Shown here one piece after another: positions 7,444 through 38,947 of a stretch of DNA of 64,000 nt. Made by a program: the position numbers and the translations under genes. Numbering within the stretch: position 1 is the first letter of the stretch; the number at the start of each line of letters is the position of its first letter. Source of the stretch: a virus; IMG/VR virus record IMGVR_UViG_2936984999_000007; one strand, given 5' to 3'. The notes beneath the pieces were generated by a model, which saw only the letters and a program-made list of their open reading frames with translations, was not told where the DNA came from and did no database searches.

Positions 7444-7794
7444 GAGCGGGAAACATATCTTCAACAGTCTGGTTGAGGAAAGCCGTTGGTCATTTTGTTA
7501 TCATGTAATCAGTCCAAGGGACAAGCCCACAGAGTCAAATGAAAGCATCTGTCGGCAAGCCCCGGACAAATAAAAAAATATCGTAAGCCCGATTCTAGAG
7601 CAGGCGAAGGATACCATAGCAGAACTTCACAGAACAGCGATTTATTTGCTGGCTGTGGAGGTGTGCGGTTGGGATTATTCCTGCTGTCTCTGGAATCGGG
7701 CTTTTTTGTTTTATGCTCCTGCCAGATAGATCAGTGCCTCATCAGCATCCTGCTTTGGTATCTTTCCCTTTCAGAGTCCGGGGGAAAGGACAAA

Positions 7795-8553
7795 ACAATG
7801 ATGATGAACATGATGACTGGAGCAGTTGCAATCAATGGTGGCGTTGGTGTGATGGAGGTCCGCCAGCCGCAGGTAATGGAGAAAGCGGTACAGGACGCAG
7901 GACATATCGCCGCCGATATCGCGGAGAACGCACACATTACCTTACATGAACTGAAGGAAAAGATCGATGCAGTGGTGGAGAAAAAGCTGCCGAGTTTCAA
8001 GGCCCTCATGGAAATGAATCCGATGGCTGTAGCCCGGACGACTGTGAATGATGCTTCTCTGACTGTTTACCAGAACGGCTATGCAGTTTACGAGATGGAC
8101 GGCGCACACACGGTCATGGCAGTGGAGCGCTGCGGGGATTACCGCTATGACTTCACGGACGATACATATCAGGTAGTGCCGGCTGAGACTTTTGAGGAGA
8201 CTGAGTGGAGCGTACGTCTGCTCATGGAAGGGGAACGCCGGATGGAGCACAATCGGAATAATCGTACTGCTGAGACTGAAAATGTGTCCCTGGAATGCGA
8301 TGGCTCCGACTGGTCCGCAGCAGTTATGGTGGATTTTTTGGATGAGGATAATGCCGAGATGTTGGCAGATCAGGAACTTCGCCGTCTGTATGCAGCCATG
8401 AGTAAGCTGACCGAGCGTCAGACGGAAATCCTTCAGCTTTATTTTTATAAAGGTATGAACCAATACGAGATTGCAGAGGAACTTGGCATCTGCCAGCAGT
8501 CGGTTAACCGGATCATGAATCAGGCAGTAAAAAGGCTGAGAAAAAATTTCTAA
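7795..8553 (+). CDS. sigma-70 region-4 domain protein (phage sigma-factor-like regulator)
   Basis: C-terminus LTERQTEILQLYFYKGMNQYEIAEELGICQQSVNRIMNQAVKRLRK matches a sigma-70 r4 HTH. RBS GGGGGAAAGGA before ATGATGATG at 7795. Confidence 0.55.
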   Translation, partial: TMMMNMMTGAVAINGGVGVMEVRQPQVMEKAVQDAGHIAADIAENAHITLHELKEKIDAVVEKKLPSFKALMEMNPMAVARTTVNDASLTVYQNGYAVYEMDGAHTVMAVERCGDYRYDFTDDTYQVVPAETFEETEWSVRLLMEGERRMEHNRNNRTAETENVSLECDGSDWSAAVMVDFLDEDNAEMLADQELRRLYAAMSKLTERQTEILQLYFYKGMNQYEIAEELGICQQSVNRIMNQAVKRLRKNF

Positions 8554-23151: not shown

Positions 23152-23338
23152 AAAAAAAACAAATAAGAGAATCCGAGGTCTGCTTTTTATCTTGGCGGCC
23201 CAATTTTTGAGAAATCCATTTTGTGAGATATAAATTTTGAGTTTCACCTGAAACAGAGCAGGCAACCTTTGTGGGAGCCTATTTGTGGGCATGGGCAAAG
23301 GCGGCCTGCTTTGTGATACAAGAAAGAGAGGACAGAAC

Positions 23339-24406
23339 ATGAGTAAGATTATCACCTGTGAACAGGTCAGCAACGGCCATCCTGATAAGATCTGTGACCA
23401 GATCGCAGATGCCATTGTGACCGACATTCTTCAGCATGACAAGCACGCCCGCGTGGCGATTGAGTGTCTGCTGAAAAAGAGCCAGCTCTTTATTGCTGGC
23501 GAAGTCACTACCGATTACCGCCCAAACTACAACCAGATCGTACACGATGTGTTCAATCGTATCGGTGCCGAAAAGCTGGGCTGGAACCTGACCGAGCTTC
23601 TTCGCATCGGCATTCTGGTGGACAAGCAGTCCCCGGACATTGCACTGGGTGTGGATAAGGGCGGTGCCGGTGACCAGGGAATCATGTATGGCTATGCCAC
23701 CAACGAGACGGCAGAGCAGATGCCGATTCCCTACATGGTCGCCACCAAGTTCCTGCAGCTTCTCAAGGCACATCCGTCTAAGATGTTCCGTGCAGATGCC
23801 AAGGCGCAGGTCAGCTACGATTACGACACCGGACGCATCACCACATTCCTCTGCTCTGTGCAGCACAGCCCAGATGTGGAGGTCAGCGACTTCCGGCACA
23901 TCATCGAATCCATGATGGTGCTTGCCGCCTGCGAGTATGGTCTGGACGGTGACTTCACGAAGCTGGTCAATCCGACCGGCCGTTTCGTTCTGGGCGGCAG
24001 CTACGCCGACTGTGGTGTGACTGGTCGGAAGCTGGCGTGCGATACCTACGGCGGCATTGGTCGCATGGGTGGCGGTGCTCTGAGCGGTAAAGACCCCACC
24101 AAGGTGGATCGCTCCGCAGCATACATGGCGAGGAAGATTGCCAAGGACATCGTGCAGGCGGGCTACGCTGACAAGTGCGAAGTCCAGCTGGCCTACGCCA
24201 TCGGTGTGGTACAGCCGGTAGGTGTGGCTGTGGAGTGCTTCGGTACTGAGCACCAGTCCCTTGACTTCATCGAAGCCTATGTCCATGACAGCTATGACCT
24301 GACCCCACAGGGTATCATCAAGCGGCTGGGACTGCTGGATGTAGATTACAACAAAGTCAGTGCTTACGGTCATTTCGGTAAGGCTGGTCTTCCGTGGGAG
24401 GACTGA
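23339..24406 (+). CDS. metK: S-adenosylmethionine synthetase (MetK)
   Basis: GHPDKICDQIADAIVTDIL and GAGDQGIMYGYATNET. Full-length alignment to MetK; RBS AGAGAGGA. Confidence 0.85.
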   Translation: MSKIITCEQVSNGHPDKICDQIADAIVTDILQHDKHARVAIECLLKKSQLFIAGEVTTDYRPNYNQIVHDVFNRIGAEKLGWNLTELLRIGILVDKQSPDIALGVDKGGAGDQGIMYGYATNETAEQMPIPYMVATKFLQLLKAHPSKMFRADAKAQVSYDYDTGRITTFLCSVQHSPDVEVSDFRHIIESMMVLAACEYGLDGDFTKLVNPTGRFVLGGSYADCGVTGRKLACDTYGGIGRMGGGALSGKDPTKVDRSAAYMARKIAKDIVQAGYADKCEVQLAYAIGVVQPVGVAVECFGTEHQSLDFIEAYVHDSYDLTPQGIIKRLGLLDVDYNKVSAYGHFGKAGLPWED

Positions 24407-26204: not shown

Positions 26205-27473
26205 ATGAAAGCGACTGCTGAACTAAAGATGCTGCCGGTGTCCGTACTCAAGCCGGCTGCATACAATCCCCGGAAAAAGTTGAAGCCGGGGGATAAAGAG
26301 TACGAGAAAATCAAGAACTCCATCACGGAGTTCGGCTTCGCAGATCCTTTGGTGGTCAATGCAGACATGACGATCATCGGCGGCCATCAGAGACTGACTG
26401 TTGCAATGGAACTGGGATACACAGAAGTGCCTTGTGCGGTGGTGGACATCGACAAGACCAGAGAAAAAGCTCTGAACATCGCACTCAACAAGATTACGGG
26501 TGCATGGGATGATTCTCTGCTGGCGGATCTTTTGAAGGACATCGAGGATTCCGATTTCGATCTCGGAAAGACGGGTTTTGACCCGCCTGAGATTGAGACT
26601 CTGTTCAACAAGGTCCACAGCAAAGAGGTCAAGGAAGATGACTTCGATGTGGAATCCGAGTTGAAGCAGCCATGCTTCTCCAAAGAGGGTGACCTCTGGC
26701 ATCTGGGAAAGCATATCGTTCTGTGCGGTGATTCTACCAAAGCAGAATGCTACAACACCCTGATGGACGGAACCAAGGCAAATCTGGTCCTTTCCGATCC
26801 CCCTTATAACGTGGATGTGGAAGAGACTGCCGGTAAGATCATGAATGACAACATGGGCGATTCGGAATTCTACCAGTTCCTTCTGGCAGCGTTCCAGCAG
26901 ATGCACGACCATCTTGCAGACGACGGTTCCATCTACATCTTCCATGCAGATACGGAAGGGCTGAACTTTAGAAAGGCATTCAAGGATGCCGGGTTCTACC
27001 TGTCCGGGTGCTGTATCTGGAAGAAGAATGCGCTGGTGCTGGGCCGTAGTCCTTACCAGTGGCAGCACGAACCGTGTCTCTACGGCTGGAAGCAGAAGGG
27101 GAAGCACCAGTGGTATTCCGACCGGAAGCAGACGACCATATGGGAGTATGACCGGCCGAAGTCTAACAAGGATCATCCGACCATGAAGCCCATCGGCCTG
27201 ATGAGCTATCCAATCCGCAATTCCACTATGACCAACGGCATCGTCCTCGATCCGTTCCTCGGCAGCGGCTCGACCCTGATCGCCTGTGAGGAGACCGACC
27301 GTGTGTGCCGGGGCATCGAGCTGGACCCGAAGTTCGTGGATGTGATCGTGAAGCGGTACATCGAACACAGCGAAGGTCATTACGATGATGTGTATGTCAT
27401 CCGGGATGGGCAGAAGCTGAAGTTCGAGGAGGTGGCGACCTTCGAGCCGGAAAGCGAGGATGCCGATGCCTGA
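26205..27473 (+). CDS. ParB-like nuclease domain fused to an N6-adenine/N4-cytosine DNA methyltransferase (beta class)
   Basis: ParB N-domain (GGHQRLTVAMELG). Motif IV SDPPYN precedes motif I DPFLGSGST. Confidence 0.8.
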   Translation: MKATAELKMLPVSVLKPAAYNPRKKLKPGDKEYEKIKNSITEFGFADPLVVNADMTIIGGHQRLTVAMELGYTEVPCAVVDIDKTREKALNIALNKITGAWDDSLLADLLKDIEDSDFDLGKTGFDPPEIETLFNKVHSKEVKEDDFDVESELKQPCFSKEGDLWHLGKHIVLCGDSTKAECYNTLMDGTKANLVLSDPPYNVDVEETAGKIMNDNMGDSEFYQFLLAAFQQMHDHLADDGSIYIFHADTEGLNFRKAFKDAGFYLSGCCIWKKNALVLGRSPYQWQHEPCLYGWKQKGKHQWYSDRKQTTIWEYDRPKSNKDHPTMKPIGLMSYPIRNSTMTNGIVLDPFLGSGSTLIACEETDRVCRGIELDPKFVDVIVKRYIEHSEGHYDDVYVIRDGQKLKFEEVATFEPESEDADA

Positions 27474-28239
27474 TGTGAAATGTGTTCTCATTCACGACAA
27501 CTTCCAGAACTTCAAGTCTTATAACATCCCCAAGGCACAGCTGGTGATCGCAGATATTCCGTACAACATCGGTACAGATTTCTACGCCAGCCGGCCGGAC
27601 TGGTATGTGGATGGCGATAACAAAAACGGGGAGAGCAGCAAGGCGAGGAAGGCGGCGTTCAATACCGACTTCACCTTCAACATTGCAGAGTATTTCCACT
27701 TCTGCAACCGCCTGCTGAAGAAAGAACCCGGCACGGGCGAGAAGGATGCGCCGTGCATGATCGTGTTCTGTGCGTTCCAGCAGATCCCGAAGGTGATCAC
27801 CGAAGCAGAGAAATACGGCTTCAAGAATTATATCCCTCTGGTGTTCTGCAAGAACTACAGTCCGCAGGTGCTCAAAGCCAACATGAAGATTGTGGGTGCA
27901 ACAGAGTATGCGCTGGTGCTGTATCGGGGAAAGCTCCCGAAGTTCCGTAATCTCGGTGAGGACGGAAAGCCCCACATGATCTTCAACTGGTTTGACTGGA
28001 AGAGGGATGGCAAGGAATATCCGAAGATCCATCCTTCCCAGAAACCGATCTCTGTGCTGAAACGACTGATCGAGACCTTTACAGATGAGGGCGATGTGGT
28101 CATTGACCCCTGCGCCGGCAGCGGTTCCACGCTGAGAGCAGCAAGAGAACTGGGGCGCAACAGCTACGGATTTGAAGTGTCCAGAGATTTTTACCGGAAA
28201 GCAAATGAGCAGATGCTCGGAGAGGAGGCTTCCGCATGA
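27460..28239 (+). CDS. DNA methyltransferase (amino-MTase, beta class)
   Basis: ADIPYN ... DPCAGSGST. Confidence 0.75.
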   Translation: MPMPDVKCVLIHDNFQNFKSYNIPKAQLVIADIPYNIGTDFYASRPDWYVDGDNKNGESSKARKAAFNTDFTFNIAEYFHFCNRLLKKEPGTGEKDAPCMIVFCAFQQIPKVITEAEKYGFKNYIPLVFCKNYSPQVLKANMKIVGATEYALVLYRGKLPKFRNLGEDGKPHMIFNWFDWKRDGKEYPKIHPSQKPISVLKRLIETFTDEGDVVIDPCAGSGSTLRAARELGRNSYGFEVSRDFYRKANEQMLGEEASA

Positions 28240-30491
28240 GCACAGAACAGAATAAGACTTTGACCCTCGGCAGCCTCTTTGATGGCTCCGGGGGTTTTCC
28301 GTTAGGCGGTCTTCTGACTGGGCAGATCACTCCGCTGTGGAGCAGCGAGATCGAGCCCTTTGCCATCCGGGTCACGACCAAACGTCTACCACAGGTGAAG
28401 CACTACGGAGATGTATCCGTCATCAGCGGCGCAGACCTGCCGCCTGTGGACATCATCACCTTTGGCAGTCCCTGTCAGGATATGTCCATCGCGGGTAAGC
28501 GGGACGGTCTGGATGGTTCACGGTCCAGTCTGTTTTACGAAGCAATCCGAATCGTGAAGGAAATGAGGTGTAAGACCAATGGAGAAAAACCAAGATTTAT
28601 CGTGTGGGAGAATGTGCCAGGGGCCTTCTCCTCAAACAAAGGACAGGACTTCAAAGCAGTCCTCGAAGCCGTCATCGGTGTTAAAGAACCGGCCGCCTCG
28701 GTGCCTGCGCCTGAGAAGAAAGGATGGCCCGACGCTGACTACTACGTGGGAGACGGATGGAGCGTCGCATATCGAGTTCTTGATGCACAATGGTGGGGCG
28801 TTCCCCAAAGACGAAAACGTATCTACCTTGTCGCAGATTTTGCAGGTCAGAGTGCCCCAGAAATATTATTTAACTCCGAGGGCTTGTCTCGGTATTCTGC
28901 GGAGGGCTTCCGTGCGTGGCAAAGAGCTGCCGCCGGTGTTGAAAGCGGCACTGGAGAGGCAGGCTGCAACGGAGCAGGAGGACGGATCTGTCTGAACGAC
29001 CAGGGCGGAGAGCGGATGGATGTGACAGAGGAAGTGACAGCCACCCTCCGTGCGGAGGCACATCATCCCCCGTGTGTTATGGAAGCAGCTGGTTTCTGTA
29101 CCGAGCATTCCGCAAATGCCAGAAGCATCGGATATGAAGAGGAGCGGTCACCGACTCTCCGAGCTGGTGTCGTACCGGCCGCCATCGCACTGGAAAATCA
29201 TCCTGCTGACAGCCGGGTGAAGATTTCCGAGGATGATAAGGTGCAGACACTGACAAGCCGGTGTGGTACGGGTGGCGGTAATGTCCCGATGGTTATGGAT
29301 GCTGTTGAAAATTCAGTGGAAAGCCAGGTGAAAGATGTTGAAAACTCCCCGGCGGTCACGTTAAAGATCCGTTCCGGATGTGAAGGTGGCGGAAAGGGAG
29401 CCATCTGGCAGGAAGAAAAGTCTGCCACTCTTGGCTGCAACAACGACCAGACACTGTTCGTTCCGAAATGCTATGGTGTCTGCTCAAAAGCCAGCCACTC
29501 CATGATGTCCGACAATCCGCACAGCGGTTTTTATGAAGCGGAGACCTCCCGGACACTGGATCGCAGCGGTGGAGACCCGACTTGCAATCAGGGCGGCATC
29601 TGTGTGGTAGAGCCGGTCGCCTTTACTCAGAATCAGAGGGATGAAGTCCGGGATCTGGGAGATAAGTCGGCGGCACTGGCAGCAGAGCCGGGGATGAAGC
29701 AGCAGACATTCGTGGCACAGCCGGAAGATGTGACAGCTTTCCATGTGAACCAGCGCAATGAGCTGATTGACCTGCATGGCAAGTCCGGGGCTTTGATGGC
29801 GACCCGGAGTGATCAGATGCAGACCTTTGTCCTGCAGGGCAACATGATCGGTCGCAAAGATGAGAATGGCCCACAGGGGGATGGTGTCAATGAGGATGTC
29901 TGCTTTACACTGGATGCCACTGACCGCCATGCAGTCTGCGCACCGGAGGATGTGTATGCCATGACCACCGGCTCCTATATGCAGGTGGCAAAAGAAGTCG
30001 CACCGACTCTGATGGCACGGGATTACAAAGACCCGACCACCATCGCACCGGCACCACATCTGAACGAGGGTGTGGCTGGTACTGTGGCGACCGGGGCACA
30101 TCCCAGCGGCTTCAATGGGCAGGATGCTTTCAATGACCGTCTGGTCATCGACAACCCGGAGGCACAGTCCACCCCTGTGACCTACACCGTCCGCCGCCTT
30201 ACACCGACCGAGTGTGCCAGACTGCAGGGCTTCCCGGACTGGTGGTGCAGAGACCTTGGAACGGAGAATCCGACCGAGGAAGAGCTGGCGTTCTGGACAG
30301 ATGTGTTTGAAACGCACCGCAAGATCGTGACCCATGCCAAGAAGCCGAAGACGGAGAAGCAGATCCGGAAATGGCTGGCTGACCCGTATACGGATTCGGC
30401 AGAGTACCGTATCTGGGGTAACGGCATTTGTTTGGCCAACGCATTTTTTGTTCTGGCCGGCATCGCATGGTGTGCAGGTCTGGAAGAATAA
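28236..30491 (+). CDS. DNA cytosine-5 methyltransferase, unusually long (751 aa) with an expanded variable region
   Basis: Motif I FDGSGGF, IV GSPCQDMS, VI ENVPG, VIII QRRKRIY, IX/X RRLTPTECARLQGFPD. About 420 aa between VIII and IX, containing several TL/RDYKDP-type segments and internal repeats. Confidence 0.85.
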   Translation: MSTEQNKTLTLGSLFDGSGGFPLGGLLTGQITPLWSSEIEPFAIRVTTKRLPQVKHYGDVSVISGADLPPVDIITFGSPCQDMSIAGKRDGLDGSRSSLFYEAIRIVKEMRCKTNGEKPRFIVWENVPGAFSSNKGQDFKAVLEAVIGVKEPAASVPAPEKKGWPDADYYVGDGWSVAYRVLDAQWWGVPQRRKRIYLVADFAGQSAPEILFNSEGLSRYSAEGFRAWQRAAAGVESGTGEAGCNGAGGRICLNDQGGERMDVTEEVTATLRAEAHHPPCVMEAAGFCTEHSANARSIGYEEERSPTLRAGVVPAAIALENHPADSRVKISEDDKVQTLTSRCGTGGGNVPMVMDAVENSVESQVKDVENSPAVTLKIRSGCEGGGKGAIWQEEKSATLGCNNDQTLFVPKCYGVCSKASHSMMSDNPHSGFYEAETSRTLDRSGGDPTCNQGGICVVEPVAFTQNQRDEVRDLGDKSAALAAEPGMKQQTFVAQPEDVTAFHVNQRNELIDLHGKSGALMATRSDQMQTFVLQGNMIGRKDENGPQGDGVNEDVCFTLDATDRHAVCAPEDVYAMTTGSYMQVAKEVAPTLMARDYKDPTTIAPAPHLNEGVAGTVATGAHPSGFNGQDAFNDRLVIDNPEAQSTPVTYTVRRLTPTECARLQGFPDWWCRDLGTENPTEEELAFWTDVFETHRKIVTHAKKPKTEKQIRKWLADPYTDSAEYRIWGNGICLANAFFVLAGIAWCAGLEE

Positions 30492-30715: not shown

Positions 30716-31843
30716 ATGTTGAAGTTTGAACTAAATGTAGAGGAGCGCAAAACACTGGCAAAGCGGATGGAGGAGCTGACAGGCATCCATCCTTACTACA
30801 CCAAGGCGCCTCGGTATGCGTATGACATCGGAAATTACACCATTGACCGGGATGGCAACCTGCTGGTGGAGGCGGAAAATGCAGATCTGGAATTGCTGAC
30901 TACGCTGATGAACGAAGGTCTGATCCGCGGCGGCGAGGATGTGGATGCAGAGACTTTGCAGGAAACTGCAGACGAACAGCCTGCGGTAGACCTTGCCGAG
31001 GGTGTCCAGATGATTCCGGCAGTACATCCAAATGAGCAGGAGACCTGTGAAGGGGATTCAGAAGAAGCCGAGGAAGATGGGGAATCCGAAATGGAGAGTG
31101 CAGAGCAAATTCCATCGGAAGAAGGTGAGGAACAGCCTGTGGCAGAGGAAGCAATCCCTCTGGATGCGGATTTTTCTTTCCCGATCAGCCAGCATAACGG
31201 CGTATCGCTTCGCAACCTGGTCAATCTGATCTACAGCAGAGGGGAACTCGTCAGCAAGGCAACGGACGGCATTTTCCTTGCCGATAAGGGGCTGGTGGAT
31301 GCCTTGAAAGATGACAGCTGCACTTATGCGGTAGCAAATTTCATTCATGCGCTCAAAGAGTATGAAGAACAGCATGGTGCTTCCCTGGAAGGCTTGACGA
31401 TCACAGATGAGAAAGTTACCTTTACAGGTTTCCCGACTGCACCGGATTATGACCACCTGACTGCATTCGGACACCTTGCGATTCTGATGAACCAGCAGGC
31501 TATCAGCCAGAAGCGGATTCAGGCAAAAGAGGTGAACGATTCCAATGAGAAATACGCTTTGCGAACTTGGCTTCTGCGCCTTGGCATGAATGGCCCGGAC
31601 TTCAAGCAGACCAGAAAGATCTTGATGGAGAACCTTTCCGGCCATGCGGCTTTCCGCACAGATGAGGAAGCACAGAAGTTCCTTGCAAGGGAAAAGGCAA
31701 AACGGGATGCCCTGAAAGCCGCGAAACAGGCGGCACAGGAGGGCAGTGCCTCCGCTGGGGAAACGATTGCATCAGCAGATGCCGAGCCGACACAGCTCGG
31801 CTGTGGGGCAGACACGGCGCAGATGCTGGAGGCGGGAGCGTAA
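30716..31843 (+). CDS. acidic protein whose C-terminal ~45 aa module is homologous to the amidoligase C-terminus
   Basis: NEKYALRTWLLRLGMNGPDFKQTRKILMENLSGHAAFR here, versus NEKYAMRCWMLRLGFIGDEFATAREILLRNMEGNASWR in the 32076-33014 gene. Confidence 0.45.
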   Translation: MLKFELNVEERKTLAKRMEELTGIHPYYTKAPRYAYDIGNYTIDRDGNLLVEAENADLELLTTLMNEGLIRGGEDVDAETLQETADEQPAVDLAEGVQMIPAVHPNEQETCEGDSEEAEEDGESEMESAEQIPSEEGEEQPVAEEAIPLDADFSFPISQHNGVSLRNLVNLIYSRGELVSKATDGIFLADKGLVDALKDDSCTYAVANFIHALKEYEEQHGASLEGLTITDEKVTFTGFPTAPDYDHLTAFGHLAILMNQQAISQKRIQAKEVNDSNEKYALRTWLLRLGMNGPDFKQTRKILMENLSGHAAFRTDEEAQKFLAREKAKRDALKAAKQAAQEGSASAGETIASADAEPTQLGCGADTAQMLEAGA

Positions 31844-31999
31844 GCTCTCAAGCCCCCAGTGGGGGCCGGAAAATATGCGAGACCCTCTTCCATTGTACTG
31901 ATATTAGCTCTGAAAATGTACATTATCAAGCGGATAAACTGCAGAAATGTACACGATCATTCCTCTCAATATTTGTCGAATATATGTTCTTTTATGGCC

Positions 32000-32028
32000 T
32001 TGCTATTATGTGCACCTGACGGTAATAT
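32000..32028 (+). promoter_or_regulatory. cassette promoter copy 1 (TTGCTA-17-TAATAT plus conserved leader GCACATACCGAAAGGGAAAAC)
   Basis: Member of the 7-copy family; drives the amidoligase. Confidence 0.55.
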
Positions 32029-32075
32029 GCACATACCGAAAGGGAAAACAAGGAAAAAGCAAAGGAGAACATACC

Positions 32076-33014
32076 ATGAACGATAAAACAAGAGAGCAGA
32101 TTGAAGCCATGAAGAACCAGACCATCGGAGTTGAGATCGAGATGAACAACATCACCAGAGAAAAAGCGGCAAGAAAGGTCGCTGATTACTTCGGAACCAG
32201 AGCATGGAACGCCGCCAGCGAGTACGGATATTACAGCTGGGCTTGCAAAGACCAGCAGGGCAGGGTTTGGAAATTTCAGAGGGATGTGAGCATCTACGGG
32301 CCAGACGCAGAAAAATGCGAACTGGTCACCCCGATCCTCACCTACGACGACATCGAACCCCTGCAGGAAATCATCCGACTGCTCCGCAAGGCAGGCGCAA
32401 AGAGCGGCCCAAGCCGCGGATGCGGGGTCCACATCCACATTGGCAAAGGCGACCACACCGCAAAGACCATCCGCAACCTTGTGAACATCATGGCGGCACA
32501 CGAACAGCAGATCGGAAGAGCCATCCGGATTGATGCAGGACGCACCGGACAATATTGCCGGGTAGTCGACCACCGCTTCCTCGACCGGCTGAACCGCGAG
32601 AAGCCGACCACCATGCGCAAGCTGGAAGACATCTGGTACGAAGGCAACGGTTCCAGCTGGGAAAACCGGAATGTCCACTACAATTCAAGCCGATACCATA
32701 TGCTGAACCTCCATGCCACCTTTACAAAAGGGACCATTGAATTCCGCCTTTTCCAATTCGCAGACCCAGCGGACGGAAAGCGCAACGGACTGCATGCCGG
32801 TGAGATGAAAGCTTACATCCAGCTTTGCCTCGCAATGAGCCAGCTTGCCAAGATGGTCAGAACAGCAAGCCCGAAGCCCCAGCAGACCGACAACGAAAAG
32901 TACGCGATGCGGTGCTGGATGCTGAGGCTGGGATTCATCGGGGATGAATTTGCAACGGCAAGGGAGATTCTTCTGCGGAACATGGAGGGCAACGCATCCT
33001 GGCGGAACAAATAA
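32076..33014 (+). CDS. amidoligase (glutamine-synthetase-like, Amidoligase_2 family)
   Basis: IGVEIEMN start, YGPDAEKCELVTP, GCGVHIHIG. RBS AAAGGAGAAC. Confidence 0.6.
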   Translation: MNDKTREQIEAMKNQTIGVEIEMNNITREKAARKVADYFGTRAWNAASEYGYYSWACKDQQGRVWKFQRDVSIYGPDAEKCELVTPILTYDDIEPLQEIIRLLRKAGAKSGPSRGCGVHIHIGKGDHTAKTIRNLVNIMAAHEQQIGRAIRIDAGRTGQYCRVVDHRFLDRLNREKPTTMRKLEDIWYEGNGSSWENRNVHYNSSRYHMLNLHATFTKGTIEFRLFQFADPADGKRNGLHAGEMKAYIQLCLAMSQLAKMVRTASPKPQQTDNEKYAMRCWMLRLGFIGDEFATAREILLRNMEGNASWRNK

Positions 33015-33081
33015 GCCAGGATGCACGGGCACCTTTTGGGCGGGAAACCGCCCTTGAGGTGGTAGAAGGAGGTGCAGGTTT

Positions 33082-33318
33082 ATGAAAAGCACGTTAAAAA
33101 ATGAAAACACACCGGGTGGCAGAGCCTTTAAGGTGACCATCACCGAGACCTACCAGAGGACGGTGACCATTTATGAATCTGAGATGAAAGAGCCGACCGT
33201 GGAGGAAGCCCAGCGTGTGGCAGAGGACTGGTGGCAGGACAGCCAGATCGAGCTTGGGACAGAGGATTTCCAGGGCGTGGAATTCACTGGCAGGGAGGAC
33301 GGTGAGGCAGATGTTTGA
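33082..33318 (+). CDS. small hypothetical protein
   Basis: RBS GGAGGTG. Confidence 0.3.
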   Translation: MKSTLKNENTPGGRAFKVTITETYQRTVTIYESEMKEPTVEEAQRVAEDWWQDSQIELGTEDFQGVEFTGREDGEADV

Positions 33319-33832
33319 ACTGATCAGCCGAGTCCCATCCAAATATTACCTTGCCTATGGAAGCAACCTCGACATGGAGCGGATGGGAAAGAGATGCCCT
33401 TACGCTGTGGTGGTCGGCACGACCGAGATCAAGGGCTACCGGCTCCTGTTCAAAAAGAGTAAGACCGGCTGCTATGCCACCATCGAGCAGGACGCCAATG
33501 AAAGCGTACCGGCGGTGGTCTGGAAGCTCTCGGAATATGATGAGCTCCTGCTGGACCGGTACGAGGGTTGCCCAAGATACTATTACAAGAAGCAGTTCCA
33601 GCTTCCGGTCTGGAACCTGAACGGGAACCGCATGAAAAAGGCAAAGCCCTGCACCGCTTATGTGATGCACGAGGACCGGCGGCTTGGCTGCCCGGATGCC
33701 GAGTATTTTGAACTGCTGCACGGCGGATACAGCGACTGGGAATTTCCGCTGGACACACTGAAGCGTGGACTGGCAGCCAGCATCGGAAGGGCGGAAGCCA
33801 TCCGGTATCTGAAGAAGCGGCAGATGATGTAA
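33311..33832 (+). CDS. gamma-glutamyl cyclotransferase (GGCT/AIG2-like)
   Basis: YLAYGSNL motif near the N-terminus. RBS GGGAGGACGGTGAGG. Confidence 0.65.
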   Translation: MFELISRVPSKYYLAYGSNLDMERMGKRCPYAVVVGTTEIKGYRLLFKKSKTGCYATIEQDANESVPAVVWKLSEYDELLLDRYEGCPRYYYKKQFQLPVWNLNGNRMKKAKPCTAYVMHEDRRLGCPDAEYFELLHGGYSDWEFPLDTLKRGLAASIGRAEAIRYLKKRQMM

Positions 33833-33962
33833 GAGTACACGATCACAGGGAAAAAACATTGTGCAGTATATGATGCTCATCGGCCTTGATAAATCAGGGC
33901 AAAAGAGTGATATATACCATACCGCCAGACAAGAGCGGAGAAAACCGAAGGGAGAGATTCAA

Positions 33963-34442
33963 ATGAAGAACAAGAAATATTACATCGCCTACGGCAGCAA
34001 CCTGTCGGTGGAGCAGATGGCATACCGGTGTCCGGATGCAAAAATAGCAGGACAGGCGGTGCTGGCAGGCTGGGAGCTTTTGTTCCGAGGCTGCGCTACC
34101 ATCGCACCGAACCCGAAGAAGAACACGCCGGTTCTGGTGTGGGAGATCTCGGAAAGGGACGAAGAGAACCTCGACCTCTATGAGGGCTACCCGAACTACT
34201 ACCGCAAGGAAGACCTGAACATCGAACTGCTCCGGGAAGGGGCAGAGCCGGAGATGGTGACCGCAATGGTCTACATCATGGAGAACGACTTCGGACATCG
34301 CGCACCGAGCCGGTATTACTACAAAGTTTTGCATGACGGCTACAAGGCATTCCACTTCCCGATGCACATCCTCGAAGGTGCACTGAAGGAGTGCATGGAT
34401 AAGGATGCCGCCCAGAAGATGATCGAGGAGGTGCAGGCATGA
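33963..34442 (+). CDS. gamma-glutamyl cyclotransferase (GGCT/AIG2-like), second paralogue
   Basis: YIAYGSNL motif. Confidence 0.65.
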   Translation: MKNKKYYIAYGSNLSVEQMAYRCPDAKIAGQAVLAGWELLFRGCATIAPNPKKNTPVLVWEISERDEENLDLYEGYPNYYRKEDLNIELLREGAEPEMVTAMVYIMENDFGHRAPSRYYYKVLHDGYKAFHFPMHILEGALKECMDKDAAQKMIEEVQA

Positions 34443-34906
34443 ATTTCGCAGATCAGAAAACAGTCGAACGCCTTCGGGCAGAATTCCCGGTCGGATGCCG
34501 GATCGTCCTCGATGAGATGGATGACAGGCAGGCAACGCCCATCGGAACGCAGGGAACCTGCAACGGGGTCGATGATGCCGGAAACATCTTAGTGAGCTGG
34601 GATACCGGAAGCCATCTGAACGTTGCCTACGGTGCGGACAGTTGCCACCGTGTGGCTTCGGAAACCGAGGTCAAGGTGTCGCTCGACCGCCTTGGTAAAA
34701 CGCGACAGACCGGCCCACGTTGCCCCAGGTGCGGAGCAAAGCCCGACTGCTACGACCATCAGCAGCAGGCACTCAGCCGAAGGGCGGACATCCAGATCTG
34801 CAACCGCTGCGGAACGGAGGAAGCGTTAGAGGACATTGCATGGGGTGGACAGCAGAAGATGCAGCTTGCAGACTGGGCAATCGTGAAAGGGGGCTGGGTC
34901 GAATGA
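34439..34906 (+). CDS. DUF4314-like domain protein with a C-terminal zinc ribbon
   Basis: CPRCG ... CNRCG. Confidence 0.4.
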   Translation: MNFADQKTVERLRAEFPVGCRIVLDEMDDRQATPIGTQGTCNGVDDAGNILVSWDTGSHLNVAYGADSCHRVASETEVKVSLDRLGKTRQTGPRCPRCGAKPDCYDHQQQALSRRADIQICNRCGTEEALEDIAWGGQQKMQLADWAIVKGGWVE

Positions 34907-35277
34907 AAGTCCTTCTGATCAAACCGATGGAGCATCCGCATGTGGTGGACATTGAAAACTCCCTGAAAGAGTTCTACCGCATCCTCGACTGCGACTGCAT
35001 CACAGCCACGTACCCGTGGGAAGCGGATGCCGTGGCACTGGTAACGGACGACAATGGGATGTTCACTGAGAAGCCGTTCAGCCGGTACATTCCGGAGCTG
35101 GAGCAGCCCATCAAGGGAAACTTCTTCATCTGCGGACTGGGAGAGGAGGATTTCGCAGAGCTGCCCCAAGACCTTATCCAGAAATTCAGGGAACGATTCT
35201 GGGTGCCGGAGGCATTCGTCAGCATGTTCGGGCAGATGGCAGTCATCCAGATGGATGACGGAACGAAGCCGGAATAA
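34903..35277 (+). CDS. DUF3846-like protein
   Basis: MKVLLIKPMEHPHVVDIEN N-terminus typical of DUF3846. Confidence 0.4.
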   Translation: MKVLLIKPMEHPHVVDIENSLKEFYRILDCDCITATYPWEADAVALVTDDNGMFTEKPFSRYIPELEQPIKGNFFICGLGEEDFAELPQDLIQKFRERFWVPEAFVSMFGQMAVIQMDDGTKPE

Positions 35278-35705: not shown

Positions 35706-35757
35706 CCCCAGCTTCTGCTGGGGAGCCTCTGAGGGATTCCTTAGAAGAAATCCCTCA
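35706..35757. terminator. two adjacent hairpins (CCCCAGC-ttct-GCTGGGG and GAGGGATT-N9-AATCCCTC) between convergent genes
   Basis: Bidirectional terminator position. Confidence 0.45.
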
Positions 35758-35974
35758 TGCTCATGCCGACCTCGTTCAGTCGTTCCTCCATGCTGTGGTA
35801 GTGCCAATCCTCTTCCTCAAGCTCCTCTGGAAAAGGGTCGTGCTGCCATCCGGCTTTCTGGTATTCTTCTTCCCGGATGTCGTTGCGGTCGTAAATGTCC
35901 AGCTCGTATTCTTCTTCAAGCTCTGCGATGCGGTTTTCGATTGCGTTTTCAACTTCTGTAATGGTCTTTTTCAT
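35741..35974 (-). CDS. small acidic protein (77 aa); the only minus-strand gene in the 4-64 kb block
   Basis: Minus-strand RBS AAACGGAGGACAAAACCC before the ATG at 35974. Rich in E/D/W/Y. Confidence 0.4.
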   Translation of the reverse strand: MKKTITEVENAIENRIAELEEEYELDIYDRNDIREEEYQKAGWQHDPFPEELEEEDWHYHSMEERLNEVGMSMRDFF

Positions 35975-36123
35975 GGGTTTTGTCCTCCGTTTTTGGTTTG
36001 GTTTTCTTTGCTTTCGTTGTGTGTATAATGCCGCAGAAACACATATATAGCAAGTCAATCAGGGGTCATATATGTACCAAACATGAAGGGGGAAGATCGT
36101 TGATAATATGACGTTTTATGGCC

Positions 36124-36152
36124 TTGCTATCACAGGGCGGTGACGGTAATAT
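36124..36152 (+). promoter_or_regulatory. cassette promoter copy 2 (TTGCTA-17-TAATAT, ACAGCTAC leader)
   Basis: Conserved family member. Confidence 0.55.
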
Positions 36153-36183
36153 ACAGCTACAAAAAGCAAAGGAGGACAGCAGA

Positions 36184-36360: not shown

Positions 36361-36441
36361 GAAAAACGGGGAGGGAAACCTCCCCGGATAAACACATAAA
36401 TCCACCAGATCAAGGTGCAGATGATCGTGTACTTTAGCCGC

Positions 36442-36470
36442 TTGATAGTATCCGGCAGTGACGGTAATAT
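36442..36470 (+). promoter_or_regulatory. cassette promoter copy 3 (TTGATA-17-TAATAT)
   Basis: Conserved upstream box GATCGTGTACTTTAGCCGC. Confidence 0.55.
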
Positions 36471-36500
36471 ACAGCTACCAAAACGAAAGGGGCAAAGAAC

Positions 36501-36983: not shown

Positions 36984-37112
36984 AGGCAAGACCGACAGGC
37001 GCAAGGGGCTGGAAATGACCAGCCTTTTGCTCGTGTCTGTCTTCCGAAAGCCGACATAAAAAGCACATAAATATGACAATTACAGGATTGAATGATTGTG
37101 TAGTTTAGCCGC

Positions 37113-37141
37113 TTGATAGTGCTCCGGGGTGACGGTAATAT
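37113..37141 (+). promoter_or_regulatory. cassette promoter copy 4 (TTGATA-17-TAATAT)
   Basis: Conserved family member. Confidence 0.55.
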
Positions 37142-37185
37142 ACAGTCACCGAAAGGGGAAAACAACAAAAACGGAGGATAAGACA

Positions 37186-37629: not shown

Positions 37630-37726
37630 GCCAGAGAAACACAGGGGGCTTGCCGGAAACGGCGGCCCTTTTCCTCTGTCATAATCCTTACAGATCCGGG
37701 CGGTCATCTTTGTGTAGTATAGCCGC

Positions 37727-37755
37727 TTGATAGTGTGTGACATAGACGGTAATAT
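37727..37755 (+). promoter_or_regulatory. cassette promoter copy 5 (TTGATA-17-TAATAT, GCACATACCGAAAGGGAAAAC leader)
   Basis: Conserved family member. Confidence 0.55.
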
Positions 37756-37799
37756 GCACATACCGAAAGGGAAAACAAAGAAAAACGGAGGAAACCACC

Positions 37800-37991
37800 A
37801 TGAAGAAGAACATCACCAAGGAAGAAGAAAAAGCCCTGCTGGAGATCACTAAGCGCCTGCTGGCAGCGGTAGACAGCCGGGGCGACCTCGAAGCCCGCGA
37901 TAATGACAGCGAGGACTTCATTGAGGTTCCGGTCTGGGGCATCCAGAAAGCAATGGAGGAAGCCTACTTGCTGGGACGGATGACCAGATAA
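37800..37991 (+). CDS. small acidic hypothetical protein (63 aa), cassette gene E
   Basis: RBS AACGGAGGAAACCACC. Confidence 0.4.
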   Translation: MKKNITKEEEKALLEITKRLLAAVDSRGDLEARDNDSEDFIEVPVWGIQKAMEEAYLLGRMTR

Positions 37992-38122: not shown

Positions 38123-38329
38123 ATGGAAGAACGGATGATGGATACCATCGTGGAAATCTACAACCACATGGATGACAGCGATAAGGATGCCTTCACACTG
38201 GAGGATGCCGAGGATATGGTGGAAGACCAGATCAGGATGGACAAGGAAGCCGGACGGGAGCCGCTGGCATATGACCCGCAGTTCTTCTACGATACCATTG
38301 TGGAACTCATGGAGCAGGATGTAGAATGA
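38123..38329 (+). CDS. small acidic hypothetical protein (68 aa)
   Basis: RBS AGAGGAGAAGCAT. No promoter copy of its own. Confidence 0.3.
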   Translation: MEERMMDTIVEIYNHMDDSDKDAFTLEDAEDMVEDQIRMDKEAGREPLAYDPQFFYDTIVELMEQDVE

Positions 38330-38378
38330 TGTACGTTTTGCCTGGTATTCCGGGCAGAAGATCGTGTACTTTAGCCGC

Positions 38379-38407
38379 TTGCTATCCTTTGCACCTGACG
38401 GTAATAT
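38379..38407 (+). promoter_or_regulatory. cassette promoter copy 6 (TTGCTA-17-TAATAT)
   Basis: Conserved family member. Confidence 0.55.
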
Positions 38408-38463
38408 GCACATACCGAAAGGGAAAGACCCCAAGAAAAAAACGAAAACACGGAGGATTTACC

Positions 38464-38748
38464 ATGAAAAAGCATTTGATCGACTTCCCGGAAAACAACA
38501 TCAGCATCGAGAGTTTCTACGAACGACTCAGACCTTGCTACGACAGCATCATGCAGTTCGGTGACCGGGTTCTGGTTGCCCAGATGAACTGGAACGGCAT
38601 GCTGGAAGGAGCGGTATATGGCTTTGTGGAAGACCCAGAGGAAGGCTGGTCACCGATTGAGTGCCGACTGGAACTTCTGAAGATTTCCGATGAGACCTAC
38701 ACGGATGCCGGTCACGCAATCGAGTGGTGCATCAAGAACGCACACTGA
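38464..38748 (+). CDS. hypothetical protein (94 aa), cassette gene G
   Basis: RBS ACGGAGGATTTACC. Confidence 0.4.
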   Translation: MKKHLIDFPENNISIESFYERLRPCYDSIMQFGDRVLVAQMNWNGMLEGAVYGFVEDPEEGWSPIECRLELLKISDETYTDAGHAIEWCIKNAH

Positions 38749-38860
38749 AAAAGGGCAGAGCTCCTTCGGGGGCTTTTGCTCGTAGTGGCGGATTCTTCCA
38801 GTGTGGAAATATACATAAATCCGACAAAAAGAGGTGTGTATGATCGTGCAGCATAGCCGC

Positions 38861-38889
38861 TTGCTATATCCGGGCGGTGACGGTAATAT
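38861..38889 (+). promoter_or_regulatory. cassette promoter copy 7 (TTGCTA-17-TAATAT)
   Basis: Conserved family member. Confidence 0.55.
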
Positions 38890-38947
38890 ACAGTCACAAC
38901 GAAGGGGAAAGCCCTACGGAAAACAAAACACACGGAGGATACAGACC

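What the first reader, a model, noticed from the sequence alone, without database searches (positions are those of the whole stretch)
30716..35277. Phage amidoligase plus two gamma-glutamyl cyclotransferases, with an acidic partner protein sharing the amidoligase C-terminal module
An operon-like block contains an Amidoligase_2-type (glutamine-synthetase-like) enzyme and two AIG2/GGCT-like proteins. The GGCT genes begin with the diagnostic YxAYGSNL motif. A small ORF lies between them, and DUF4314-zinc-ribbon and DUF3846 genes follow.

The upstream 375 aa protein is strongly acidic (Glu-rich centre). It ends in a ~45 aa module clearly homologous to the amidoligase C-terminus (NEKYALRTWLLRLGMNGPDF ... 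versus NEKYAMRCWMLRLGFIGDEF ...). A shared docking module suggests that one protein is a partner or substrate of the other. One chemistry would be gamma-glutamyl-type ligation by the amidoligase and cleavage by the GGCTs, forming a peptide-tag or metabolite ligation/removal cycle.

The amidoligase also carries a copy of the cassette promoter family (32000-32028), which ties this system to the small-gene array. Amidoligase/GGCT neighbourhoods in phages have been predicted computationally. To my knowledge this system has not been characterised experimentally.
Basis: partly seen in the sequence, partly recalled or inferred. Interest (0 to 1): 0.8.

Follow-up and report, generated by a model that had tools for sequence, protein, structure and literature searches.

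The report
Phage amidoligase–cyclotransferase cassette with dead paralogue
A prophage of a gut Blautia-type bacterium carries an already-predicted but never-tested enzyme pair, an ATP-dependent amide-bond ligase plus two gamma-glutamyl cyclotransferases. The "acidic partner" next to it is a catalytically dead, full-length copy of the ligase, and many related phages carry that copy without the enzymes.

Summary
32076-33014 is an Amidoligase_2 enzyme (PF12224, E 5.5e-55). 33311-33832 and 33963-34442 are GGCT/AIG2 enzymes with an intact YGSNL motif and catalytic Glu. DpnD/PcfM, DUF4314 plus zinc-ribbon, and DUF3846 genes are present as described. The C-terminal similarity is highly significant (BLASTP E 3e-13; shuffle z 24.9).

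The interpretation needs revision. The acidic 375-aa protein is a collinear, full-length paralogue of the amidoligase, not an unrelated partner with a borrowed docking module (hhalign E 1e-30; E 1.5e-9 with the C module removed). Its predicted fold matches phage amidoligases and Dop/PafA/GCL. The ligase's invariant polar residues are lost, so it is a pseudo-enzyme. The acidic stretch is a disordered linker of 0-283 aa, not a conserved feature.

This family (GenBank "virulence-related protein") is near-universal in Ca. Heliusvirales-type phages and often occurs without amidoligase or GGCT. When the amidoligase is present it sits immediately downstream (43/43 species-level loci). Amidoligase-GGCT linkage is tight (33/34 genomes) and was predicted before; I found no experimental work.

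Verdict: an ordinary member of a known, uncharacterised phage cassette, with one modest new insight. Function remains inferred.

The parts
30716..31843 (+).
   Evidence: No Pfam, NCBIfam or PADLOC hit. phrog_2443 'amidoligase enzyme' E 2.4e-37 over residues 2-345. hhalign against amidoligases: prob 99.85, E 1.2e-30, collinear 3-316 vs 20-312. AF2 pLDDT 96-98 outside the linker. 100% identical to a Blautia faecis MAG protein; its 90% cluster holds 1096 member sequences on 514 contigs.
30938..31159 (+). Acidic disordered linker of the pseudo-amidoligase (aa 75-148). It replaces the segment that holds the E82 strand in the active enzyme.
   Evidence: 36% D+E, 0 K/R. pLDDT below 50 over 81-123. 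Linker length 0-283 aa in 129 family representatives; mean 36% D+E when at least 30 aa long.
31457..31660 (+). Shared C-terminal module in the pseudo-amidoligase (aa 248-315; NEKYxxRxWLxRLGxxGxE[FY]KxxRxxLxxNLxGxxA[FW]R)
   Evidence: BLASTP E 3e-13; shuffle z 24.9. Invariant or nearly invariant N277 E278 K279 R283 W285 R288 G290 G293 R300 G309 R314.
31975..32071 (+). Copy of the promoter/leader cassette (TTGCTA-17 nt-TAATAT plus a purine-rich leader) directly upstream of the amidoligase
   Evidence: Repeat families D1-D4; exact 32-mer recurrence with 0 expected; alignment A3.
32076..33014 (+). Amidoligase_2 (glutamine-synthetase-like carboxylate-amine ligase), 312 aa, pI 9.35, predicted active
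   Evidence: PF12224 E 5.5e-55. Invariant E20 E22 E82 H119 H121 R156 H201 R206 N211 H213 E222 R224 H240 across 20 homologues down to 40% identity.
32805..33005 (+). Shared C-terminal module in the amidoligase (aa 244-310), outside the Pfam model
   Evidence: The module is not detectable in Bacillus or Arthrobacter phage amidoligases, so it is a derived trait of this clade.
33082..33318 (+). DpnD/PcfM-like small acidic protein (78 aa); overlaps the GGCT-1 start by 8 nt
   Evidence: PF14207 E 6.5e-7. Found directly after the amidoligase in 15 of 50 non-redundant amidoligase loci by the script (two more by inspection).
33311..33832 (+). GGCT/AIG2-like cyclotransferase 1 (173 aa)
   Evidence: PF06094 37.7 bits; phrog_2520 E 1.7e-36; YLAYGSNL and LDRYEG motifs.
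33834..33962 (+). Diverged eighth copy of the promoter/leader cassette, upstream of GGCT-2
   Evidence: Alignment A4, 63% mean column identity; shared TACACGATCA, TTGATA and CATACCG blocks.
33963..34442 (+). GGCT/AIG2-like cyclotransferase 2 (159 aa)
   Evidence: PF06094 48.3 bits and PF13772 30.2 bits. Full-length alignment to human GGCT 2pn7, E 1.8e-5, with YGSNL and the Glu98 position (LDLYEG) conserved.
34439..34906 (+). DUF4314 plus C-terminal zinc-ribbon protein (155 aa); 4-nt overlap with GGCT-2
   Evidence: PF14192 E 2.2e-26. A DUF4314 gene is present in 27 of 33 species-level loci whether or not the amidoligase is present. It directly abuts the amidoligase in L235.
34903..35277 (+). 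DUF3846 protein (124 aa); 4-nt overlap with DUF4314
   Evidence: PF12957 E 2.9e-22; start codon checked.

Best explanation
Shown here. The block is the accessory cassette that many Ca. Heliusvirales-type Firmicutes phages carry between their DNA methyltransferases and the terminase genes. It has three layers.

1. A near-core gene encodes a catalytically dead, full-length paralogue of the amidoligase. The fold is kept, an acidic disordered linker sits where part of the active-site barrel used to be, and the putative metal/ATP-binding residues are lost.
2. Immediately downstream, behind its own cassette promoter, lies an apparently active Amidoligase_2 enzyme.
3. Next come one (here two) GGCT-type cyclotransferases with intact catalytic motifs, then DUF4314 and DUF3846.

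The two paralogues share a derived, roughly 65-aa C-terminal module rich in invariant Arg, Trp, Gly and Glu. More distant phage amidoligases lack it.

Inferred. The amidoligase uses ATP to join a carboxylate, most plausibly the gamma-carboxyl of glutamate as in GS/GCL-type enzymes, to an amine on a small molecule or protein. The GGCTs act on the same gamma-glutamyl-amide and release 5-oxoproline plus the amine. The two activities therefore form a ligation/resolution pair.

Inferred. The shared C module is a target- or partner-recognition surface inherited from the common ancestor. The dead paralogue uses it to bind without catalysis. It would act as an adaptor or regulator of the ligase where the ligase is present, and as a stand-alone binder in the many phages that lack the enzymes.
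For: Identity of the enzymes.

Full-length paralogy:
- PHROG 2443 covers residues 2-345.
- hhalign E 1.2e-30, collinear.
- With the C module removed, middle block E 1.5e-9 and N block E 3.5e-4, both in the right order.
- The family's N+middle HMM hits genuine amidoligases at E about 1e-4.
- The Foldseek BFVD top list is dominated by phage 'Amidoligase enzyme' entries at prob 0.99.

Loss of catalytic residues: column mapping.

Linker: disordered and length-variable.

Ligase-GGCT coupling:
- 33 of 34 amidoligase-bearing Heliusvirales genomes also have a GGCT.
- A GGCT lies within 2.5 kb downstream in 40 of 50 non-redundant amidoligase loci, usually less than 100 nt away.
- The pair also occurs in Bacillus and Arthrobacter phages.

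Adjacency of the paralogues: the dead copy is directly upstream, on the same strand, in 43 of 43 species-level loci that have both, and the ORFs overlap in 6.

Age of the duplication: module identity between the two paralogues is 40.0% within a genome and 40.3% between genomes.

The C module is restricted to this clade.
Against: - No biochemical evidence exists for any step. Substrate, product and the role of ATP are inferred from superfamily membership only.
- 'Catalytic' residues are assigned by invariance and analogy. No Amidoligase_2 structure is solved.
- The dead paralogue occurs without the ligase in 8 of 33 loci of at least 15 kb, in 15 of 51 Heliusvirales genomes and in several other phage groups. 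Adjacency could therefore reflect only tandem-duplication history or a preferred insertion site.
- Some amidoligases lack a detectable GGCT (Butyribacter-type loci) or lack the dead paralogue (Ruminococcus phages and Faecalibacterium phage Taranis).
- A GGCT needs a free alpha-amino group on the glutamyl moiety. It could therefore not reverse a Pup-like, peptide-linked tag.
Confidence: 0.6

Rival explanations
1. First reader's model. The acidic protein is the substrate or docking partner of the amidoligase. The ligase glutamylates it or a target it presents, the GGCTs remove the modification, and a tag cycle results.
For: - Significant shared C module.
- Opposite charge of the two proteins, pI 4.4 vs 9.35.
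- Strict adjacency when both are present, sometimes with overlapping ORFs.
Against: - The similarity is whole-length paralogy rather than a grafted docking module.
- The Glu-rich segment is not conserved and is absent in many members.
- The family is common without any ligase or GGCT.
- There is no excess within-genome similarity of the two modules.
- GGCT chemistry needs a free alpha-amine, which limits what it could remove.
Confidence: 0.15
2. The dead paralogue is functionally independent of the ligase/GGCT pair. It is a core gene of this phage lineage tied to the DNA-methyltransferase or packaging region, for example an anti-restriction or DNA-mimic protein (through its acidic linker) or a regulator. 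The ligase-GGCT genes are a moron cassette that lands in the same hot spot or arose there by tandem duplication.
For: - Present in at least 44 of 51 Heliusvirales genomes against 34 for the ligase.
- Always close to a ParB-type DNA methylase.
- Abuts the methylase with a 1-nt gap in L235.
- The ligase and GGCT-2 each carry their own cassette promoter.
- DUF4314 is likewise present irrespective of the ligase.
Against: - Retention of the clade-specific C module with many invariant charged residues in both paralogues suggests a shared ligand.
- 43 of 43 adjacency and overlapping ORFs in some lineages are more than an insertion hot spot requires.
Confidence: 0.3
3. Metabolic drain. Ligase plus GGCT together run a futile cycle (Glu + ATP gives gamma-Glu-X, which gives 5-oxoproline + X). 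This would remodel host glutamate and ATP pools or make 5-oxoproline, with no specific macromolecular target.
For: The chemistry follows directly from the two enzyme classes, as in the GCL-GGCT shunt of the gamma-glutamyl cycle (established biochemistry, my own knowledge). Ligase-GGCT coupling is tight.
Against: - It does not explain the conserved extra C module or the dead paralogue.
- Some ligases lack a GGCT.
- Nothing here tests it.
Confidence: 0.1
4. The cassette modifies DNA or nucleotides, for example by adding an amino-acid-type group to a base, as part of the phage's anti-restriction armoury.
For: Genomic setting: it lies directly after three DNA methyltransferases and MetK. An Nmad4 'nucleotide modification associated' gene lies in the downstream small-gene array.
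Against: - No enzyme that would make a reactive base (hydroxymethylase, TET/JBP, DNA kinase) was found among the 30 window proteins scanned.
- Neither the ligase nor the GGCTs have a detectable DNA-binding domain.
- The case rests on context only.
Confidence: 0.05

Closest known systems
Amidoligase_2 (PF12224) with AIG2/GGCT gene neighbourhoods of Firmicutes phages, predicted by Iyer, Abhiman, Burroughs and Aravind 2009 (Mol Biosyst 5:1636). The paper is not held in the library and is cited from memory and through PMC11318856. The Pfam family description also notes the AIG2 neighbourhood (my own knowledge).
   Same: - Same ligase family and same cyclotransferase family.
- Same adjacency and same phage setting.
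- The identical gene order (methylase, 'virulence-related protein', amidoligase, AIG2/GGCT, terminase) is already tabulated for the Tn6164 prophage module of C. difficile (PMC3485107).
- It is also annotated in C. clostridioforme LM41 prophages (PMC11318856).
   Different: - Here the GGCT is duplicated and a DpnD/PcfM gene is inserted. Both are traits of a sub-lineage.
- The upstream gene had not, to my knowledge, been described explicitly as an inactive amidoligase paralogue.
LUZ24-like and Arthrobacter phage cassettes: Amidoligase_2 with glutamine amidotransferase, ATP-grasp or COOH-NH2 ligase, and AIG2/GGCT
   Same: An Amidoligase_2 enzyme linked to a GGCT-like enzyme in a phage early or accessory region (PMC3890496; Arthrobacter phage Waltz).
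   Different: - Those cassettes add a glutamine amidotransferase and further ligases.
- They lack the dead paralogue.
- Among these, the Arthrobacter phage Waltz amidoligase, and also a Bacillus phage amidoligase, lack the C-terminal module; the LUZ24-like amidoligases were not examined.
PafA/Dop-Pup system (prokaryotic ubiquitin-like tagging)
   Same: - Two paralogous GS-like proteins are encoded together.
- Some cassettes encode a small acidic protein with a GG[ED] tail right after the ligase.
   Different: - Dop is an active amidase, not a dead enzyme.
- No sequence-level relationship to PafA/Dop was found.
- The GG[ED] tail is present in only about half of the small proteins and is DGEADV here.
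- A GGCT cannot cleave a peptide-linked gamma-glutamyl isopeptide.
Gamma-glutamyl cycle enzymes (glutamate-cysteine ligase plus gamma-glutamyl cyclotransferase)
   Same: A GS/GCL-superfamily ligase paired with a GGCT. GGCT-2 aligns end to end with human GGCT and keeps YGSNL and the Glu98 position.
   Different: - The ligase belongs to a different family with an unknown substrate.
- The setting is a phage.
- An extra C module and an inactive paralogue are present.
'Virulence-related protein' / PHROG 2443 family
   Same: The 375-aa protein is a typical member. It carries the name 'virulence-related protein' in the Streptococcus Javan phages, Clostridium phage CWou-2020b and Erysipelothrix phi1605, and 'virulence protein' in Gardnerella AB1. 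Pharokka labels it 'amidoligase enzyme' because PHROG 2443 merges both paralogues.
   Different: Neither name reflects the finding here: it is homologous to the ligase but lacks its conserved active-site residues. No evidence for a role in virulence was seen.

Membership tests
Amidoligase_2 (PF12224): gene 32076-33014 | Match to the family HMM above the curated cut-off | tested here: met
   187.3 bits against a cut-off of 22, E 5.5e-55, profile positions 1-244 of 245.
Amidoligase_2 (PF12224): gene 32076-33014 | Conserved acidic, His and Arg residues expected for metal/ATP binding in GS-like ligases | tested here: met
   E20, E22, E82, H119, H121, R156, H201, R206, H213, E222 and R224 are invariant in 20 homologues down to 40% identity. 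Their catalytic role is inferred by analogy, because no structure is solved.
Amidoligase_2 (PF12224): gene 32076-33014 | Neighbourhood with an AIG2/GGCT gene (Firmicutes type) | tested here: met
   Two GGCT genes lie within 1 kb downstream. 33 of 34 related genomes show the same pairing.
Amidoligase_2 (PF12224): gene 32076-33014 | ATP-dependent carboxylate-amine ligation | not testable with these tools
   Needs an enzyme assay.
Amidoligase_2: gene 30716-31843 (acidic protein) | Match to the family HMM above the curated cut-off | tested here: not met
   No Pfam hit at E up to 0.01.
Amidoligase_2: gene 30716-31843 (acidic protein) | Homology to the family by profile and fold | tested here: met
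   hhalign E 1.2e-30 over the full length, and 1.5e-9 without the C module. PHROG 2443 E 2.4e-37. BFVD amidoligases at prob 0.99.
Amidoligase_2: gene 30716-31843 (acidic protein) | Conserved active-site residues | tested here: not met
   The positions of E20/E22 are variable. H119 and H121 become variable and Ser. E222 and R224 become Thr/Ile and Thr/Asp. The E82, R156, H201, N211 and H213 segments are deleted. It is therefore a homologue but not a functional member.
GGCT / AIG2-like (PF06094, PF13772): genes 33311-33832 and 33963-34442 | HMM match above the cut-off | tested here: met
   37.7 and 48.3 bits against a cut-off of 22.8. GGCT-2 also matches AIG2_2 at 30.2 against 27.
GGCT / AIG2-like (PF06094, PF13772): genes 33311-33832 and 33963-34442 | YGSNL substrate-binding motif and catalytic Glu (Glu98 of human GGCT) | tested here: met
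   GGCT-2 aligns to 2pn7: YIAYGSNL with YFAYGSNL, and LDLYEG with LDEQEG. The E98Q mutant entry 3cry marks the position. GGCT-1 has YLAYGSNL and LDRYEG aligned to GGCT-2.
GGCT / AIG2-like (PF06094, PF13772): genes 33311-33832 and 33963-34442 | Cyclotransferase activity on a gamma-glutamyl amide | not testable with these tools
   Needs an enzyme assay.
Pup-like tagging system (PafA/Dop plus Pup) | Small disordered tag protein ending in GGQ or GGE, encoded with the ligase | tested here: inconclusive
   The DpnD/PcfM-like protein after the ligase ends in DGEADV here. Homologues end in EGGE or carry GG[ED] near the end in 6 of 15 non-redundant cases. The gene is absent from about two thirds of ligase loci.
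Pup-like tagging system (PafA/Dop plus Pup) | Sequence membership of the ligase in the PafA/Dop family | tested here: not met
   [not shown]
Known anti-phage defence systems (PADLOC-DB v2.0.0 models) | HMM match to a catalogued component | tested here: not met
   No hit for any of the seven proteins at E up to 0.01.

The most novel reading that the evidence does not exclude
The dead amidoligase paralogue is a pseudo-enzyme adaptor. Its clade-specific C module recognises the same host or phage target as the active ligase. The ligase then attaches either glutamate or the GG[ED]-tailed DpnD/PcfM-like small protein to that target, which would be a phage-borne, Pup-like covalent tagging system. The GGCTs would trim or recycle gamma-glutamyl intermediates. 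In phages that keep only the dead paralogue, binding alone, helped by the acidic and possibly nucleic-acid-mimicking linker, would suffice to neutralise the target.
Probability: 0.08. Interest if true: 0.8.

Novelty: new member of a known kind. Interest (0 to 1): 0.38.

Why it matters
Ca. Heliusvirales are among the most widespread temperate phages of human gut Firmicutes (PMC11283538). About two thirds of the 51 reference genomes examined here carry this ligase-cyclotransferase pair, and nearly all carry the dead paralogue (2278 clusters at 50% identity). Yet no component has a known substrate.

Recognising the "virulence-related protein" as an inactive amidoligase paralogue has three practical uses:
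- It corrects two misleading annotations ("virulence" and "amidoligase enzyme").
- It shows that the shared C module is a clade-specific addition rich in invariant charged residues, which makes it a concrete handle for finding the common ligand.
- It offers a natural enzyme/pseudo-enzyme pair for experiments.

If the cassette modifies a host protein or metabolite during induction, it would be a new phage takeover or counter-defence chemistry in the gut microbiome. As it stands, it is a well-populated, previously predicted, uncharacterised module.

Tried and rejected
- Rfam scan of the whole window found no family. The repeated leader is not a known RNA.
- NCBIfam and PADLOC gave no hits for any cassette protein.
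- A sequence search of the PDB with the amidoligase profile found nothing significant. The AcrIF9 match (E 0.15) is treated as chance.
- Pairwise alignment (not profile) of the N+middle parts is only marginal, z 2.7, 1.8% of shuffles. The claim of full-length homology rests on profiles.
- A test for gene conversion or co-adaptation of the two C modules was negative, 40.0% vs 40.3%, permutation p 0.91.
- Long family members were checked for informative fusions. Only a serine-recombinase fusion (P0225) turned up, and it is probably a gene-calling artefact.
- The hairpin after the acidic gene's stop codon is not better than shuffles, z -1.2, and has no U-tract, so it is not called a terminator.
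- The idea that the C-terminal Glu of DUF4314 or DUF3846 marks a tag was rejected. The final residue is conserved only among close relatives.
- Iyer et al. 2009 could not be read.
- The look-up of encoding contigs on two distant members gave only short contigs.

Full report
**Setting.** The window is a temperate siphovirus-type phage or prophage of a Lachnospiraceae host. Upstream of the finding lie a family-A DNA polymerase, a D5-type primase-helicase, an SNF2 helicase, a DUF2800 nuclease, an Enc34-type SSB, a sigma-70 region-4 protein, MetK and at least four DNA methyltransferases. Downstream lie TerS, TerL, portal and an HK97-type capsid. The acidic protein is 100% identical to a Blautia faecis MAG protein. 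That protein represents a cluster of 1096 sequences on 514 contigs. The closest annotated genomes belong to Ca. Heliusvirales.

- The amidoligase (32076-33014) matches PF12224 at 187 bits.
- The two cyclotransferases match PF06094, and GGCT-2 also matches PF13772.
- The small ORF between ligase and cyclotransferases is a DpnD/PcfM-like protein.
- DUF4314 plus zinc ribbon and DUF3846 follow. PHROGs agree.
- GGCT-2 aligns end to end with human GGCT. It keeps YGSNL and the catalytic Glu98 position, and GGCT-1 shares both motifs.
- The C-terminal similarity is 39% identity over 67 residues, BLASTP E 3e-13. It lies 24.9 sd above shuffles.
- The gene block is tightly packed. DpnD/PcfM overlaps GGCT-1 by 8 nt. 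GGCT-2 overlaps DUF4314 by 4 nt, and DUF4314 overlaps DUF3846 by 4 nt. No terminator-like site lies on the + strand.

**What the acidic protein is.** Three independent lines show that it is a full-length paralogue of the amidoligase and not a different protein with a borrowed tail.

1. PHROG 2443 ("amidoligase enzyme") matches residues 2-345 at E 2.4e-37.
2. A profile of 51 diverse family members aligns collinearly with a profile of 21 non-redundant amidoligases, 3-316 vs 20-312, at E 1.2e-30. After the shared C module is removed from both profiles, the middle block still aligns at E 1.5e-9 (152-240 vs 119-227, centred on HxxxxxRNLVN). The N block aligns in the expected place at E 3.5e-4. The N+middle HMM alone also detects genuine amidoligases at E about 1e-4.

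**Loss of the active site.** I mapped the amidoligase's invariant residues onto the family alignment.

- The E-x-E strand, the H-x-H strand and the E-F-R strand are not conserved in the acidic family.
- The E82, R156 and HYNxxRYxxxNxH segments are deleted.
- R28, D70, D92, H127, the RNLVN helix and the whole C module are retained.

The protein is therefore best described as a pseudo-enzyme. The "catalytic" label for these residues is an inference from invariance and superfamily analogy.

**The acidic centre.** In 129 representatives the segment between the N and middle blocks ranges from 0 to 283 residues, with a median of 57. When at least 30 aa long it averages 36% Asp+Glu and 3% Lys+Arg. 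It is a recurrent acidic disordered insert, but it is dispensable and variable. That argues against its being a conserved glutamylation substrate.

**The shared C module.** The module (NEKYxxRxWLxRLGxxGxE[FY]KxxRxxLxxNLxGxxA[FW]R) lies outside the Pfam model. It is invariant at many charged positions in both paralogues. It is not detectable in Bacillus or Arthrobacter phage amidoligases. It is therefore a derived feature of one amidoligase clade, and the dead paralogue descends from that clade. Identity between the two modules is the same within and between genomes, 40.0% vs 40.3% over 47 pairs. The duplication is thus old, with no gene conversion. The density of invariant Arg, Glu, Asn and Trp suggests a binding surface. 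That is an inference.

**Distribution and linkage: GenBank phages.** tblastn against GenBank phages gives these counts among 51 Heliusvirales genomes:

| Feature | Genomes |
|---|---|
| Dead paralogue present | at least 44 |
| Amidoligase present | 34 |
| GGCT present | 33 |
| Ligase and GGCT together | 33 of 34 |
| Paralogue and ligase together | 29 of 34 |
| Paralogue without either enzyme | 15 |

The paralogue also occurs without either enzyme in the two non-Heliusvirales phages whose neighbourhoods I inspected, Streptococcus phage Javan630 and Clostridium phage CWou-2020b. The other Javan phages, Erysipelothrix phi1605 and Gardnerella AB1 match the paralogue but are not among the listed amidoligase or GGCT matches.

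**Distribution and linkage: species-representative genomes.**

- 25 of 33 loci of at least 15 kb have the ligase, and 19 of those have a GGCT.
- In all 43 loci with both paralogues the dead copy is directly upstream on the same strand, and the ORFs overlap in six.
- In Butyribacter intestini the ParB-methylase, dead paralogue, ligase and DUF4314 genes abut or overlap, and no GGCT is present.
- Ligase without the paralogue occurs in some Ruminococcus phages and in Faecalibacterium phage Taranis.
- The DpnD/PcfM insert and the second GGCT are traits of the window's sub-lineage.

Overall, the dead paralogue and DUF4314 behave as near-core genes. Ligase plus GGCT behave as a tightly coupled accessory unit that is always placed between them.

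**Promoters.** A roughly 100-nt element occurs seven times between 31975 and 38910. It carries TTG[AC]TA, a 17-nt spacer, TAATAT and a conserved purine-rich leader. One copy sits immediately before the amidoligase. A diverged eighth copy precedes GGCT-2. The ligase unit can therefore be transcribed independently of the acidic gene, which lies upstream of the element. Co-transcription cannot be decided from sequence.

**Mechanism.** Two statements are shown here. The cassette encodes one apparently competent GS-like ligase, two apparently competent GGCTs and one inactive ligase paralogue. The ligase and GGCT genes are co-inherited.

What follows is inferred from the established chemistry of the two superfamilies. 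The ligase makes a gamma-glutamyl-type amide at the expense of ATP, and the GGCTs convert such an amide to 5-oxoproline plus the free amine. The dead paralogue would bind the same ligand or partner through the shared module.

The rival in which the paralogue is functionally independent, linked instead to the methylase or packaging region, remains substantial.

**Comparison with what is known.** The amidoligase-AIG2 neighbourhood in Firmicutes phages was predicted in 2009 (Iyer et al., cited in PMC11318856; not readable here). The same gene order is already tabulated for the Tn6164 prophage module (PMC3485107) and for LM41 prophages (PMC11318856). LUZ24-like, Bacillus and Arthrobacter phages carry related pairs. 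I found no experimental characterisation, and the Heliusvirales papers do not discuss it. The only element I could not find described is the explicit recognition of the "virulence-related protein" as a catalytically dead amidoligase paralogue. PHROG clustering captures this only implicitly.

**Verdict.** This is a typical member of a known, widespread, uncharacterised phage cassette, with one modest new structural and evolutionary insight and no demonstrated function. Interest 0.38.

Noticed in passing
window 31975-32071, 33834-33962, 36099-36166, 36394-36491, 37065-37162, 37679-37776, 38354-38450, 38813-38910: A family of roughly 100-nt promoter/leader cassettes (AGCCGCTTG[AC]TA, 17-nt spacer, TAATAT, then ACCGAAAGGGAAAAC...GGAGG) precedes the amidoligase, GGCT-2 (a diverged copy) and six small genes. 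Each accessory gene or gene pair looks like a self-contained expression cassette. There is no Rfam match.
   Followed up: partly
window 7663-8553 (+): A phage-encoded protein with sigma-70 region 4 (PF04545, E 4e-15). It is a candidate cognate factor for the repeated promoter family. This was not tested.
   Followed up: no
window 33082-33318; homologues in L058, L174, L175, L177, L178, L135, L186 and others: The DpnD/PcfM-like small protein that follows the amidoligase has a folded core of about 60 aa and a variable acidic tail. The tail often contains GG[ED] at or near the C-terminus (EGGE at the very end in several loci). The window copy ends in DGEADV. This is reminiscent of Pup's GGE, but it is inconsistent (6 of 15 non-redundant tails) and the gene is absent from most ligase loci.
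   Followed up: partly
L235 8599-11857 (Butyribacter intestini prophage): The ParB-N6/N4 methylase, dead amidoligase paralogue, amidoligase and DUF4314 genes abut or overlap (1-nt gap, 20-nt overlap, 13-nt overlap), with no GGCT in the locus. This is a minimal, translationally coupled version of the cassette.
   Followed up: partly
window 37800-37991 and 38326-38748 (+): The small-gene array before TerS includes a DUF6900 protein and an Nmad4 (nucleotide modification associated domain 4) protein. The other array ORFs have no Pfam match.
   Followed up: no
window 26205-30491 (+): Three consecutive, overlapping DNA methyltransferase genes lie directly upstream: ParB_N-N6/N4 (422 aa), N6/N4 (259 aa), and a 751-aa C5 methylase whose PF00145 match is split into three stretches, implying large inserts. 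MetK lies at 23285-24406 and a further N6 methylase at 4880-6343. This is a heavy anti-restriction investment.
   Followed up: no
window 35741-36058 (-): A 105-aa ORF on the opposite strand, with an acidic C-terminal half and no Pfam hit, separates the cassette from the small-gene array. It marks the 3' end of the + strand block.
   Followed up: no
amidoligase residues 7-67 (window 32094-32276): The amidoligase profile has a weak, non-significant similarity to anti-CRISPR AcrIF9 (PDB 6w1x, E 0.15). I regard it as chance.
   Followed up: no
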